Below, in pieces: positions 6,928 through 50,840 of a stretch of DNA of 64,000 nt. The DNA comes from Cetorhinus maximus (Eukaryota). The notes under the pieces were generated by a model. It did no database searches. It had not been told where the DNA came from and saw only the letters and a program-made list of their open reading frames with translations. Location of the stretch: the NCBI RefSeq assembly GCF_964194155.1, contig NC_135887.1, positions 20,150,001 to 20,214,000 on the forward strand. The letters are read 5' to 3'. The position numbers were made by a program, and so were the translations under genes. The first letter of the stretch is position 1; every line of letters starts with the position of its first letter.

Positions 6928-7209
<282 letters not shown>

Positions 7210-7949
7210 TAACAATTGACTAAATTGATTAAAAGATATTGGGTGTTGGTCAGTGGGTGGCTTTTTGTCTGCTTTAGTACTGATTTGCTAGGGCAGGTAT
7301 TTGGTTCAGATGGTTTTCATTGGCTTTCAAGATTGCTAAAGATCAATGCAAATTTGTGCAGACCTGGACCATCACTCCTTGTCACTGCATTGGAATTCAA
7401 CTGGAAACGGTTTTCTTCAGCTACCTTCAATGGTGTACTATTTCACAATGCTATCTATCAATGAGTTGTTTGTACTAGGGTGGGTTTGACTTCAGCAGCG
7501 GATGGGGAAAAACCAAGTTTTTTTTGGCTATCAGGCTGACTTTTGGATTGACCATTTTTTGTGTATAGATGGTATCTTGTTAAATGGTATGTCTTATTAG
7601 CCCAATTTTGGATGAGCTATGATTGTTTCCTCTTTAAGCCAGCAGATTGGAATTCTGCAGTGATCCAAATAGGAAAATTCTGGTGTCTACCATTCTGGCC
7701 ATTGCAGTGTTCCAGCTGAGAATGTATTTGTTCAACTTCCAGTTGATAATTTTGCTGTAAAATAACTTTAATGTTGGTTTGATACCTCTGCAGCAGGCTT
7801 TAATTGAATCGATTGTTAGTGTGGGTTTTAACTTTAGATTTGGATAATTTCAATTAACTTCCAAAGACAGTTTCTTTAAATTACTAAAGTCACATTAGAA
7901 TAGACTTCTTCCCAGTGCGTGCACTTGGGTCATTAATTGTAATCTTAGG

Positions 7950-8288
7950 GAACATAACATACAAATGAGGAGCAGGGCATACAGCCCCTTGAGCTTGCTC
8001 TGCAATTGAAGGTCATGGCTGATTGTGGCCTGAACTTCTCATTCTACCTACCAGCCCCATACCTCTGATAACCTTTGATTCCCTTGTTAGTCAAGAATCT
8101 TGCTACCTCCACCTTAAAAGCTTTCATCGACCCTGCCTCTGCTGCTCTCCAGGGGCGCGCAACCCTCAATTTCTCATCACCTCCATCTTAAATAAGAGGC
8201 CTGTTACTTTTAAACTGGTGTCCTGTAGTTCCAGTCTCTTTAGAGGAAGCACCCTTTCTGTATCAACTCAGACCCTTTAAGATCTTGG
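7950..8288 (-). mobile_element. CR1 3'-end fragment
   Basis: Resembles 62820-63170 (ggagcagg...cagccccttgagcttgctctgc...tttctcatcacctcc). Confidence 0.7.
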
Positions 8289-8445
8289 GAAACATTGCTG
8301 TCCTTACCTGGTCTGGCTTATGCATGACTCCAGCTCCACACCAGTGTGATTGACACTTAAACTGCTGTTGGTTGTACCTATACCTTGAAGAGTGGGTACT
8401 AAATGCCAGCCTTGCCAGTAACACTGATGTCCTGAGAATGGAAAA
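8289..8445 (+). mobile_element. Second copy of the same SINE-like 3' part
   Basis: gtccttacctggtctggcttatgcatgactccag...aaatgccagccttgccagtaacactgatgtcc. Confidence 0.6.
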
Positions 8446-9142
8446 GCTAATTCCAGGCAAGCCTGTGCTCCCTAAAGAAGGAAAACTTGTAGATGGTGTC
8501 ATGGGGCAAACCTTGTTTGAGGCACAGCCTGTCCCACCACCTCCAGTGCCAACTTAAAACTTCTTTGTGGGGCAAAAGAGAAAATGTCATTGTTCTTTTA
8601 TCAGATTGCTCAGAGGTCTAAATGTCAGACTTTGAACCTAGCTCCCTGTTCTTCAGGTTCTTTTTTACACACTTGTGGTTAGCTCTAAAACTAGCTTTCT
8701 TACATCAGCAGTGGTGAACTTTGTACTATCACTGGATTCATTAATTCTACTTTTGTCTAGCTAAGTGTGGGGAACCAATTATATTGTGAATGCAGTGATA
8801 TGTGCAAAACCATTCCTGGTTGTAATTGTCTTGCAAAATAAACTGGGCGATAGAGGCACTTCCACACTACAGAAATTATAAGCATCGTATTAGTTTTGTA
8901 GCCTATAATAGTGCTTGTGTAACCTGGAAGCCTAAGAAATCTAAGTGTGGTCATTAAAATAAATAAAAATAAAAGCTGCATTGTGTTCAGTTGATCTTGA
9001 GCAGGTATTTTAATTTTGGACTATCACTTAATAGACTTGATAGTCCTTAACCTCCTAAATTTTCCAACCTGAATGCAAAGACTGATGGGTAAAGTCAGTT
9101 TGTGCTCACATTATCTTGGAGTTTTGACACTAAGTTTCTAAC

Positions 9143-9176
9143 AGCTGAATTATCTTAAAAGCTGAATTATCTTAAA
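9143..9176. repeat. Perfect 17-bp tandem duplication
   Basis: agctgaattatcttaaa x2. Confidence 0.9.
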
Positions 9177-9641
9177 TACACCCTTAAGAGCTGCAAAACC
9201 CATAAATACTCCTTTGAAAAGAATTAACTATTTTCTTGAATTTCTTTATGCAGGGAGTGCTGACAACATCAGGAGCTGATTTTGGAGTTACTGTTAAACT
9301 TAGATGCTTTAGCTAATTTGAGATTTCAGTAGTTCCCCTGGCTATTATCCCTGATGTCCTCTGCTTTGTCTAAATGCACAATTGTTCTAAATTTAAGTGC
9401 AAATTTAGAAGCTGAAAGATTCTTGAATACATATAGCACTTGCTAGGTACTAGTAAAATGCAGTGACTGCTTTATATTGCTTTTGTTTATATAAAGCAGT
9501 TGGAGATTTAAATCTCCAGACATTAGGCTTCAAAAGATAAACTTTTTTATATATAGCTTTTTTGGTGACACTTAATACCTGGAGTTTGTTTTACTGATTC
9601 AATTACTTTGCATTTCTTTACTGCTTTCTTTGTATAAGCAG

Positions 9642-9644
9642 ATG
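9642..9644 (+). CDS. CLTC: Predicted alternative 3-nt microexon (ATG) adding Asp: IALK-D-AGKTL
   Basis: Pyrimidine tract with TGC motifs, then aagcag|ATG|gtgagt (consensus donor). Frame-preserving phase 1/1; TGCATG sites downstream. Confidence 0.7.
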
Positions 9645-11224
9645 GTGAGTTACTTTAAATCTAGACGTTTGATTCTGGTCCAGTTTATAAAACTTTTTGG
9701 GTTTTAAGACCATCTTGCATGATATTTCAGAACTGATTCTGAAATGTTAGCTGTTGTACTGAAAGATTAAACTGTTCCTAAAGTTGCAGGACCATCTGTA
9801 TTGAATTTTAAAACCGACAAGCCTGAACATTTTTCTTTGTAAATGCCTTTATCAATATTGATTTGACAAGATGTTAAAAGCACTCTAAGCCTGAGCCAGT
9901 TGTGGTTCATTTTTCTGCCTACATGAAGGGGCAAAATCCTAAATTGATAAGACTCTAGGCCTTTTTTAATGCATGGCTGAGTTTGAAGAATTAACTGACT
10001 AAATTTGTAAACCTTTCTGGCTCCTAGCAGCTTGGGGTATAGGAAATGAATTTGGAGTCCTGGTCATGTTGGGCATCTTAAGTCTGAAATTTATCTTGTG
10101 CTGACATTTAACTAGCTACATCCCACAGCTCGACTCTTGGGCATTTTGTTTCCATAGGTCTGAATTCTGAAACTTCAGGTGGGTGAGGGAACACAAGTTG
10201 CACTTTATGAACTGGGCCAGAACAGCCATGAGCCTGAATTTTGCATTTTGAATTCTATGTAGTTTTGTGTGCAACTGGATATTTGGGATGGGAACAAGCA
10301 CTGAGCAGTTGGGTTTTTCCCCTGTACTTTCTTGTACTTTTAAATGTGTTTTATAGATCAAGGAGTTTTACAACTTCTGTCCCAACACAATTTAATGGGT
10401 TTTTCTCTTGTATTCCATTAATCAATTGTCAGGCTCAATAGGAAAAGGTTGTTGAGTCCACTAGTGTGTCCCTGTTCTGGTCCTGTTAAGTCTTGGAATG
10501 TCTATTGATAAGGCTCTGGAAATTTAGCAATTTAACACTGCAATGATCCAACCTTGTAGTGAATTGTGGATGAGCTTTAGCACAAAGAATAAAACTTCAA
10601 AATGCTGTAGAGCAAGATACTTGTATAGGGATTGTACTGTTTCCAAAAATTCTCTTGGCTATGGTCTCTCTCAATTTTTGTTACATGTGGGAAAACTTTA
10701 ATCTCATTTGAGTGCTAGTTGTAGATGTTCCCATCCTTTTGAGTGCTGTGTTGTGCTCCAGAAACGCATACAGATGAATGCTGTTTGGTCTAGACCTGCT
10801 ACCATTCACATGTAATGCAATTTTGTAAAAGGTTATCTTTTTACAAAGCATCAACAATTATAGACAGATACTGCATTGCTCTGGATGGCTTTATTATATA
10901 CCTAGTATCAAATGGACAACTAGTTAGCCCTGTGATTCTCCAGTTTCTTGACGCCAACCAATTTAACTTAATTTCTAACATTAACTTTTGCCAGTTCAGT
11001 AAGAAATGACAGATGTTTGTTTGAGGTATATAATTATCCTGGTTAAATTGTGGGACTTCAGATTCTCTACTTCTATTAATTCTCACCTTTTTGAAGGGAA
11101 ACATGCAAGTGACTTTATTGTGGCATTTGACCTTTACAGGCCTGCCAACAAAATCTGAGGGGAGGGGTATAGAGAGCTGAATAAAGATTTATGGAGCATT
11201 TTGGCAGTATCTGTTTAGTCTTAG

Positions 11225-11578
<354 letters not shown>

Positions 11579-48225: not shown

Positions 48226-50599
48226 GTATGTGACCAGCATGCTGAAGTAAGCTTGAAGGAGGTTGATGTAGCTTCAAGGAGCATACCTTCTTGTGTTAGA
48301 GGCTCTACTGTCTGCAGTAACCACTATAGCTCAAACATCAGACAGTAGTCAAATGGTTTATAGTGAGGTTTTGCTATGGAGATTAGAACTTTGAAGTCTA
48401 CAGTACACTAGTACAGTTTAACTGGCAACTCAAGAAAGAAGTTGCTGTTTTGTTGCTCATGTCAACCCAATGGTTGGAAAAGTATGGTTAATCCTAGACT
48501 AGTAGGTCTAGTAAAATTCCTGCTGAAGATTACTGGATTATTGCCAGTAGCTCATCTACTGGTTATCCAGAATAAGTTACTATGGTTAACTCAGATTAAA
48601 ATTGAGCACTAACTCTGGTCCTCATGTTCCCTATTCTCCCATTCTTGTTAAATTTTAATTTTTTTCCCTAACTAATCCCTTCTTCCACCCCACCACTTAG
48701 CATTCTAAATCTTGTCCGTTTCCTCTGACCATCCACTCTAGGACAAGTTTAGGAAAGTTCTTAACTCGAACCATTTGACAGTCCAAATTTTGGCCTTGCT
48801 GCATCGCAAATGTGGCCAGGCCAATCTGCCAAGTGCTGGGCTGCTGAGTTTGCTCAACCACCTCATGCTTAATGGCTAACACACAAGAACTTTGATGCTA
48901 AAGTCCCTGCATTTCAGTTAAATATTTAAACTCCTAAATTATATTTAAACTTAAATTTTACTAATTGAAAGTAATCTGGCTAGCACTATAGGCTCTTTGC
49001 TTTGAAAAATTCCATTTGTGACTTTATTTGTCTCCAGTTAAACCCCCTTTGAATGCATTACTGTGCACACTCCCTTTTTTTGTATATATTAAAATTGGTT
49101 CTAGACTATAGCAGTTACTACAAGATTGCAGATGAACAGTCCTGATTTTTAGAAACTTTGTGCTGGCTGTTAGCCAGGAGACCTGTCTGAATATTCTGCA
49201 GCACCATAAAACTGTTCATTTACAATGTGATACTGTTTTGGCCATGTCTCCAGTGACAAATAAGTGGATGCCAGATATTACATTAAATTGCTGACCAATA
49301 ACTGGAGACTAAGCAGGTTTTGTACTTGCAGAACTAAACCAAACAACTTGTTCAAGGACTTGTGCTTCTAGGACCCTTGTTGGAGAGTTGTTATCCTTTT
49401 ATATTTTTCCTGTCCTACTTTGAACAGTGCGCTGATGTTACACTCACTGCTCTTGAGGGACGATCATTTTCCTTGGTAATGTTAAACAAAGTTTGATTAG
49501 CTTAACTAATGACTTGGCTCTCAGCCTTGTATTGAGTGTCTTGCCATAATTGTGCTTTTTTTGGGGTGTGACAAGAATTATGCTATAGTTGAGGATTCTG
49601 GTAGTGACAACTAAGTGAATTTGTATGGAATGGGATTCCATAAGTGAGTGTTCTCAAACTTTGGTTTGGGTATTTGGAATTGTCAACTGCTGTTTAGACA
49701 GCACCAAAAAGTTAATAAAATGTCCCCAAACATGGGCGTGTGATTTGAGGGCATTCTCTGTATAGTTCGTGCTGTACTTTAATGAAACTTGGTCTGAATA
49801 GCAGTTCTCGAATTGAATCACATCAGATGCTGAAGCTGCTAAAATTGTGACAGCAAGAAACTGAGTTGGCAACAGACTTTTTATCAGGTTCCTCTACTTG
49901 CACCTGCAGCACTTTGTTTACACTAATGCCTTATCTAATGACCTTGCATTCCTGGCCAACTTTTCTGTGCAGAGTTATGATCTTTTAATATGCTTGCAGT
50001 GTCTTATTTTGATATTTAATTGTTTTTCTGTACCTGTTGCAAGCTACCTTTTTTGCTTGCAGATGAATGGCATAATAAAATTTAGGTTTGGAATCTAATT
50101 CAATTTGCAGCCAGTATAAATTTAAGTTCCATGTAGAAGGGTTGGCCACATTTTTTAAGCTATTCTAGTTAGTAATGGCTATAATTGGGGCAACACTTCA
50201 TTTCTGCATCTTAGTATGCTGGACTTTGGGATGAGCAGTACTTTCTGCTGTACATTGAAGCAAAGATTTGCTAATTGTCCCTTTTTTACCTTGGTAATGG
50301 TCAATTTTAGTCAATTCATGCAACTTAACATCTATCTAGAGAAGTTGGTTAGTTTGGGAAATGGTAACTTCTAAATATGTAGGTTTCAGTGTAGTCATAC
50401 AATCCCAAAATTAGGTATGGGATACTGAAGCCTTAGAAGCTGCACAGTTTAATTAGTGGAGTATGATGTTTGGATTAGGTTTTTACTTCAGTAAAACAAT
50501 TGTAAAAGATGGAAGCTTGGTATTGAATTACTTTTTTACAAATTTTATTCTGCCATCATTCATCTGTATGTTTGTCCTTCCTGATGTTTTGTAGTACAC

Positions 50600-50840
50600 A
50601 ATGCTGCTATTTACTGTTCCCTCCCCCTTTTCCATCTCCCCTTCCTGTTCTGGGTTTTCCTTCCTTGACTTTTGCTCCTTTTGCTGTTTTCTACCTGCTT
50701 TATTGTGCTGGATGAGTTTGGATTCTAAGCTGCTACCCTCTGAATTCCCTTGCAGGTTGATGAAATAAAGAAAAAGGTGAAAGTTGACTCAATTTCCATC
50801 TTAATTCTGGAGACTGAAACTCAGGATATCTGCATGAATT
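50600..50840 (+). promoter_or_regulatory. Splicing-regulatory region of the 21-nt microexon
   Basis: About 100-nt C/T tract with repeated YGCY upstream; TGCATG (RBFOX motif) at 50831-50836 downstream. Confidence 0.55.
50756..50776 (+). CDS. CLTC: Alternative 21-nt microexon (VDEIKKK), counterpart of the mammalian muscle-regulated CLTC 'exon 31'
   Basis: cttgcag|GTTGATGAAATAAAGAAAAAG|gtgaaa; phase 0/0; same position and length as the mammalian 7-aa insert (recalled as VDAIKEK). Confidence 0.88.

What the first reader, a model, noticed from the sequence alone, without database searches (positions are those of the whole stretch)
9590..9725. Hidden 3-nt microexon that would insert one Asp beside the clathrin-box binding groove
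Seen: in the middle of intron 2 the sequence reads tactgat (branch-like, A9597), a pyrimidine tract with TGC at 9609 and 9622, then aagcag|ATG|gtgagt, a full-consensus donor 3 nt after an acceptor. Exon 2 ends AAA G and exon 3 starts CT GGA, so inclusion gives AAA GAT GCT GGA (K-D-A-G) with no frameshift. TGCATG lies downstream at 9716 and 9970. Established: UGC just upstream of the acceptor is the SRRM3/SRRM4 microexon signature, and downstream UGCAUG is an RBFOX enhancer. K83/A84 (human numbering) lies next to the blade 1/2 groove residues (I80, T87, Q89, F91, K96, K98) that bind clathrin-box motifs. Inference: a tissue-specific, probably neural, one-residue switch that adds a negative charge at the adaptor site and is invisible to ORF tools and most annotation. 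I recall teleost isoforms reading IALKDA and a mammalian isoform with a 4-residue insert at this junction; both need checking.
Basis: partly seen in the sequence, partly recalled or inferred. Interest (0 to 1): 0.85.

Follow-up and report, generated by a model that had tools for sequence, protein, structure and literature searches.

The report
Known 3-base clathrin microexon, shark copy
This is the shark copy of an already published three-base exon of the clathrin heavy chain gene that likely adds one aspartate beside the adaptor-binding groove in nerve or retinal cells; the one addition here is that the second clathrin gene carries the same exon, so it likely predates their ancient duplication.

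Summary
In detail: ag|ATG|gtgagt lies at 9642-9644 in CLTC intron 2, and inclusion reads K-D-A-G in frame. It is not new. Ciampi et al. 2022 (PMC9303857) describe the human 3-nt CLTC microexon HsaEX0015816 between K83 and A84, with the same Asp-in-the-groove hypothesis. It is retina-specific in human, responds to SRRM3/4, and has srrm3-dependent zebrafish counterparts.

Splice-site score alone is modest (229 of 3000 simulations match it). Orthology decides: the island is the best-aligned intron stretch against an amniote CLTC locus, and 41 of 313 database proteins spanning the junction carry the Asp.

Added here: this genome's CLTCL1 paralogue and a teleost cltcl1 locus have the same island, and +Asp proteins fall in both clades. 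The exon therefore likely predates the 494-451 Mya duplication; my searches did not find that in print.

Not shown: inclusion in shark CLTC. The RNA laying was uninformative and 4 of 4 shark or ray CLTC records skip it. The RBFOX site is absent from the three other islands. Already known; low interest.

The parts
6982..7189 (+). CLTC exon 2 (residues 15-83 plus the first base of codon 84); ends AAA G
   Evidence: 69 of 69 residues identical to four shark or ray CLTC records
7190..9641 (+). upstream intron, 2452 nt, gtaaga...aagcag
9592..9598 (+). branch-point-like tactgat, A at 9597, 45 nt before the exon; ctgat is also present at -42 to -47 in the paralogue and L029 (function inferred)
9609..9611 (+). 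distal TGC (-33); shared only with L029
9622..9624 (+). proximal TGC (-20), the likely SRRM3/4 enhancer; at -19 to -21 in all four islands
   Evidence: role of UGC from bioRxiv 2024.09.17.613571 passages
9640..9641 (+). acceptor AG (a second AG lies 3 nt upstream at 9637-9638, not shared by the other three islands)
9642..9644 (+). 3-nt microexon ATG; G+AT = Asp, G+CT = Ala; orthologue of human HsaEX0015816 and zebrafish DreEX0022266
9645..9650 (+). donor GTGAGT, identical in all four islands (GTGAGTT)
9716..9721 (+). TGCATG, RBFOX-type motif; not conserved, role unsupported
9970..9975 (+). second TGCATG; not conserved, role unsupported
11259..11527 (+). CLTC exon 3; starts CT GGA, holds T87, Q89, F91, K96, K98 of the groove
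   Evidence: 89 of 89 residues identical to four shark or ray CLTC records

Best explanation
The window holds a shark clathrin heavy chain gene (CLTC) with a conserved ag|ATG|gtgagt island in intron 2 that is likely spliced in as a 3-nt microexon, as its published human and zebrafish orthologues are, and would add one aspartate at residue 84 beside the clathrin-box groove. Shown here: the island, the reading frame, the gene's identity, conservation of branch-like ctgat, TGC at -20 and donor in two CLTC and two CLTCL1 loci, and +Asp protein records in both paralogue clades. Taken from papers: SRRM3/4 drive inclusion in human cells and zebrafish eye; the insertion sits between K83 and A84 at site 1. 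Inferred for the shark: SRRM3/4 act through the UGC at -20 in retina and probably other neurons, and Asp84 retunes which clathrin-box adaptors bind site 1 rather than switching endocytosis off. The direction of the binding change was not measured here nor in the passages I read. The same island in the CLTCL1 paralogue means the exon likely arose before the CLTC/CLTCL1 duplication.
For: Human event at the identical junction: 3 nt, K83/A84, Asp84. Human PSI retina 57.8, neural 1.1, others 0.05; SRRM4 overexpression raises it by 2.9-34.7 points in 7 cell sets, SRRM3 by 2.5, MSI1 by 0. Zebrafish cltca and cltcb 3-nt exons fall from 72.5 to 34.7 and 86.7 to 48.3 in srrm3 mutant eyes; cltcb DreEX0022266 is listed as orthologue of HsaEX0015816. 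Gene identity: CLTC clade support 99 in a 34-row tree and a PTH2-family gene about 28 kb past the gene's end on the opposite strand (human CLTC-PTRH2 adjacency is recalled). DNA conservation; L029 has ACG, which still gives Asp (GAC). Proteins: 41 of 313 records spanning the junction carry D; ATG or ACG cannot come from a shifted donor (would start GT) or a tandem acceptor (would end AG), so D needs a separate exon (sequence logic). Logan protein P0083, sister to this genome's CLTCL1 (support 99), reads IALKDAGKT across the junction.
Against: No direct evidence of inclusion in shark CLTC. All 4 of 4 shark or ray CLTC records retrieved skip it, two of them labelled isoform X1; these are a few isoforms from a 40-member sample of a 1123-member cluster, and annotation often misses 3-nt exons (general knowledge). 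The splice-site score alone is reached in 229 of 3000 simulations. One of six intron pairs (L007 with L029) aligned best elsewhere, and window with L029 was matched by 3 of 40 controls. The RBFOX motif is not conserved. UGC is present in only about three quarters of SRRM3/4 microexons and is not strictly required, so it is a weak signature. No binding measurement for the +Asp domain appeared in the passages I read.
Confidence: 0.9

Rival explanations
1. The island is the true orthologue but is silent or nearly so in sharks: a conserved relic, or included only in a rare cell type at low level.
For: 4 of 4 shark or ray CLTC records skip it. Human inclusion outside retina is near zero, so lineages differ.
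Against: Branch-like motif, TGC spacing and donor are all intact and conserved; the chondrichthyan-type CLTCL1 record P0083 includes the Asp.
Confidence: 0.07
2. The site is a chance AG-NNN-GT in a 4-kb intron.
For: 229 of 3000 simulated introns reach its score; one antisense control site scores higher.
Against: Same 13-mer in the paralogue's intron 2 (expected 7e-5), same island in amniote CLTC and teleost cltcl1, and a published exon at the same junction with the same residue.
Confidence: 0.01
3. The exon is real but arose separately in CLTC and CLTCL1 (or was copied between them later), so it does not date to before the duplication.
For: A 3-nt exon needs few bases; the loop tolerates other inserts in frogs, amphioxus, insects and bivalves. 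The island lies 2452 nt into the intron in CLTC and 160 nt in the paralogue. The lamprey residue is Glu, not Asp, and its DNA was not seen.
Against: The paralogues share ttactgatt, TGC at -20/-21 and CAGATGGTGAGTT in order; +Asp records occur in CLTCL1 of teleosts, frogs, turtles, a bird and a chondrichthyan-type record, 8 rows in the CLTCL1 clade and 7 in the CLTC clade; the two genes lie on different chromosome-scale contigs.
Confidence: 0.1
4. Inclusion is driven substantially by RBFOX through the downstream UGCAUG sites, giving muscle as well as neural inclusion.
For: TGCATG at 9716 and 9970; zebrafish cltcb inclusion in muscle is 58.9, above most non-neural tissues.
Against: TGCATG within 350 nt downstream in 1 of 4 islands; a hit within 350 nt has a 16.5% chance at this window's rate.
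Confidence: 0.15

Closest known systems
Human CLTC 3-nt retina microexon HsaEX0015816 (Ciampi et al. 2022, PMC9303857; passages, Fig. S3 legend and supplement rows read)
   Same: Same gene, same junction (K83/A84), same length, same Asp, same proposed effect on the clathrin-box groove.
   Different: Human inclusion is retina-specific; the shark tissue pattern is untested. The CLTCL1 copy was not found in that paper's 18 supplementary files.
Zebrafish cltca DreEX0022256 and cltcb DreEX0022266 (supplements of PMC9303857 and PMC12626424)
   Same: 3-nt exons in both teleost CLTC copies; srrm3-dependent; cltcb listed as orthologue of the human event.
   Different: Pan-neural (95.9) with 22-73% inclusion elsewhere for cltcb; exon 3 starts Ala-Ala rather than Ala-Gly.
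SRRM3/4 (eMIC)-dependent neural microexons, 3-27 nt (bioRxiv 2024.09.17.613571, passages read)
   Same: Strong donor, branch point and pyrimidine tract set back from the AG, UGC between them, frame-preserving.
   Different: Dependence on SRRM3/4 is shown for the orthologues, not for the shark site.
CLTC exon 31 microexon, VDAIKEK (PMC13676984 abstract; bioRxiv 2026.08.20.745084 passages)
   Same: Another tissue-regulated microexon of the same gene; present in this window at 50756-50776 (VDEIKKK).
   Different: 21 nt, in the trimerisation domain, regulated in striated muscle; unrelated to the groove.

Membership tests
Orthologue of CLTC microexon HsaEX0015816 | Host gene is CLTC, not CLTCL1 | tested here: met
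   tree support 99; 91% to mammal CLTC versus 85% to bird CLTCL1; PTH2-family neighbour
Orthologue of CLTC microexon HsaEX0015816 | 3-nt exon in the intron between K83 and A84, giving Asp84 in frame | tested here: met
   against the Fig. S3 legend
Orthologue of CLTC microexon HsaEX0015816 | Flanking intron sequence conserved with other vertebrates | tested here: met
   amniote CLTC locus L007: best intron alignment on the island, above 40 of 40 controls; human DNA itself was not aligned
Orthologue of CLTC microexon HsaEX0015816 | Included in shark mRNA | tested here: inconclusive
   contigs of 4 runs gave no cover of exon 2 or the site; 4 of 4 shark or ray CLTC records skip it
SRRM3/4-dependent microexon | Length 3-27 nt, frame-preserving | tested here: met
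SRRM3/4-dependent microexon | UGC between branch point and AG, strong donor | tested here: met
   TGC at -19 to -21 and GTGAGTT in 4 of 4 islands; branch point predicted only
SRRM3/4-dependent microexon | Inclusion depends on SRRM3/4 | not testable with these tools
   shown for human and zebrafish orthologues in supplement rows, not for the shark
Retina-specific microexon (RetMIC) | Inclusion far higher in retina than in other neural tissue | not testable with these tools
   true in human, not for zebrafish cltcb; no tissue-labelled shark RNA was available
RBFOX-enhanced exon | Conserved downstream UGCAUG | tested here: not met
   1 of 4 islands within 350 nt

The most novel reading that the evidence does not exclude
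The Asp84 microexon is older than the split of the two vertebrate clathrin heavy chains (494-451 Mya) and is kept in both CHC17 and CHC22 of sharks, teleosts, frogs, turtles and birds; lamprey's optional Glu at the same place may be the same exon. Both clathrins would then share one SRRM3/4-driven acidic tuning of adaptor site 1 dating from the first vertebrate retina and brain, and mammals may have lost it from CHC22 (0 of 15 named mammal CLTCL1 records carry it).
Probability: 0.8. Interest if true: 0.4.

Novelty: already known. Interest (0 to 1): 0.22.

Why it matters
The small gain is evolutionary: one residue, one microexon, kept for about 450 million years in two paralogues with different jobs argues that the Asp does something, and the binding effect has, as far as the passages I read show, only been proposed from structure. 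The shark pair gives two natural minigenes with very different upstream intron lengths (2452 and 160 nt) around the same island.

Tried and rejected
RNA evidence: the run search listed no holder on record as RNA. Contigs of 4 of the 23 listed runs (guessed RNA, related species, tissue unknown) were laid on exon 2 through the start of exon 3; they gave no depth on exon 2 or on the microexon and mostly covered a repeat near 7950-8450. The tool drops contigs that resemble human DNA, so this is no evidence either way; inclusion in shark CLTC stays open. Protein searches returned no shark CLTC representative; cluster look-ups list only 15 of 40 members read per cluster. Metagenome loci: of 80, 20 are spliced or intronless, 60 keep an intron at the same position (35 whole, 25 partial), and only 2 (L007, L029; both vertebrate by exon 2) fit the island pattern; the invertebrate loci look redundant, so absence there is weak. 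Papers not held: PMC4390143 (id recalled for Irimia 2014, which may list the event in elephant shark) and PMC15533. Print searches for the CLTCL1 copy: 'CLTCL1 + microexon', 'clathrin heavy chain + 3-nt microexon' (36), 'microexon, amphioxus, lamprey, clathrin' (37), 'CHC22, duplication, splicing' (54), 'HsaEX0015816' (70), 18 supplements of PMC9303857 and 12 of PMC12626424: none names it; VastDB itself and bioRxiv supplements could not be read and may list it. HIRA lies on the paralogue's contig but 42 Mb away, too far to count as synteny. Earlier findings search returned nothing. Exon 1 was not found in the window or 20 kb upstream.

Full report
Observation. Exon 2 spans 6982-7189 and exon 3 11259-11527. 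Skipping reads ALKAGKTL, inclusion ALKDAGKTL. With splice-site matrices from 27 of 28 mapped junctions of this gene (one doubtful junction dropped), the site ranks first of 203 non-exonic sense AG-NNN-GT sites, but one of 252 antisense sites scores higher and 229 of 3000 simulated introns reach its score. The motif alone is therefore suggestive, not decisive.

The gene. The window holds residues 15 to the end of a clathrin heavy chain. The 4.0-Gb genome has two such genes. In a quick maximum-likelihood tree of 34 rows that I chose from the 256 proteins then held, the window gene falls in the CLTC clade (support 99) and the second gene in the CLTCL1 clade (100); lamprey sits beside CLTCL1 at 94, unstarred, and the root is a midpoint. 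A PTH2-family gene lies about 28 kb beyond the window gene on the opposite strand, as I recall PTRH2 does for human CLTC. Exons 2 and 3 are identical in protein to four shark and ray CLTC records, so the source is a cartilaginous fish.

It is published. Ciampi et al. 2022 (PMC9303857; I read the matching passages, the Fig. [quoted passage not shown] Their tables give PSI 57.8 in human retina, 1.1 in other neural samples and 0.05 elsewhere; gains of 2.9 to 34.7 points on SRRM4 overexpression in seven cell sets, 2.5 with SRRM3 and 0 with MSI1; and 3-nt exons in zebrafish cltca and cltcb that fall by about 38 points in srrm3 mutant eyes. Supplement rows of PMC12626424 pair cltcb DreEX0022266 with the human event and give PSI 95.9 neural, 72.7 endocrine pancreas, 58.9 muscle and 22-54 elsewhere. 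The groove residues I80, T87, Q89, F91, K96, K98 are confirmed in review passages, which also note that endocytosis survives mutation of sites 1-3 (PMC8805674).

Conservation tested here. A metagenome scan gave 80 loci with exon 2. One amniote CLTC locus (L007) and one teleost cltcl1-type locus (L029, 68 of 69 residues to percomorph CLTCL1 records) carry the island; L029 has ACG, which still gives Asp. This genome's CLTCL1 paralogue has it too, 160 nt after exon 2, ranking first of 72 candidates in its region. Across the four introns the best local alignment falls on the island in 5 of 6 pairs, four of them above all 40 shuffled controls, one matched by 3 of 40; the sixth pair aligned best elsewhere. 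TGC sits at -19 to -21 and the donor reads GTGAGTT in all four; TGCATG within 350 nt downstream is found only in the window. None of 58 other intron-bearing loci, which look invertebrate and redundant, fits the island pattern.

Proteins. Of 471 proteins held, 313 match the junction pattern; 41 carry D and 2 (lamprey) carry E. These records are redundant by species and are mostly predicted models, so the count shows spread, not frequency. D occurs in CLTC of teleosts, lungfish, a bird and two mammals, and in CLTCL1 of teleosts, two frogs, two turtles, a bird and the unnamed Logan protein P0083, which is sister to this genome's CLTCL1. An Asp here needs a separate exon, because a shifted donor would begin GT and a tandem acceptor would end AG. 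The lamprey Glu is ambiguous for the same reason: G+AAG could be a microexon or a tandem acceptor. Against the reading, 4 of 4 shark or ray CLTC records skip the exon, and 0 of 15 named mammal CLTCL1 records carry it.

What could not be shown. No run was on record as RNA, and contigs of four runs gave no cover of exon 2 or the site; the tool leaves out human-like contigs, so this says nothing. Inclusion, tissue and regulator in the shark are inferred from orthologues.

Mechanism. Most likely SRRM3/4, acting through the conserved UGC at -20 with a distant branch point and a strong donor (architecture described in bioRxiv 2024.09.17.613571 passages, which also show UGC is neither universal nor strictly required), includes the exon in retina and probably other neurons. 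Asp84 then sits at the rim of site 1 and likely shifts preference among clathrin-box ligands. Because the domain has other sites, tuning is more likely than an on-off switch. RBFOX involvement is unsupported.

Novelty. The event and the hypothesis are already known. What my searches did not find in print (VastDB and bioRxiv supplements not readable) is the CLTCL1 copy. With the duplication dated to 494-451 Mya (PMC6548504 passages), the exon likely predates it. That is a modest evolutionary addition. Interest 0.22; the pre-duplication reading has probability about 0.8 and would merit about 0.4.

Noticed in passing
G000:C12:116403305-116403307 (minus strand; in L003): The CLTCL1 paralogue has the same ag|ATG|gtgagtt island 160 nt after exon 2, with ttactgatt and TGC at -21.
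   Followed up: yes
window 50756-50776: 21-nt exon VDEIKKK, the known exon 31 type; matches Heptranchias and Mustelus records. Optional 7-residue inserts at the same place also occur in CLTCL1 (VDGLFYK, VDEFAAK) and lamprey (VDEMKAK) records, so this exon too likely predates the duplication.
   Followed up: partly
window 49428-49475: Candidate 48-nt cassette (ag...gtaatg) reading CADVTLTALEGRSFSL just before the exon 31 type; a Mustelus asterias model (P0269) has a similar 16-residue insert CADVTLPAVEGQSFYL. Possibly a shark-specific exon in the trimerisation region.
   Followed up: partly
window 10158-10178: A second high-scoring candidate in intron 2, 21 nt, frame-preserving, 2nd of 5059 candidates of 3-27 nt. 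No matching insert in any protein held; may be chance.
   Followed up: partly
window 9637-9641: Tandem AG (aag cag) before the microexon; the upstream AG would give a 6-nt exon reading K-A-D-A. Not shared by the other three islands.
   Followed up: no
proteins P0265, P0267, P0155, P0162, P0173, P0178, P0179, P0181, P0199: Other inserts at the same junction: 10 residues in CLTC of two frogs (AGSVENAPAQAG), GSGS in both amphioxus records, and longer Gly-starting inserts in true bugs and bivalves. The loop looks like a repeated target of splicing variation.
   Followed up: no
proteins P0117, P0118, P0119: Lamprey records differ by an optional Glu at the same place; microexon or tandem acceptor is unresolved without DNA.
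   Followed up: partly
protein P0144: A record named Lampetra planeri falls inside the teleost CLTC clade (support 98 with a killifish), so its label is probably wrong.
   Followed up: no
window 7950-8450: A repeat within intron 2 that many contigs of related species match in part.
   Followed up: no
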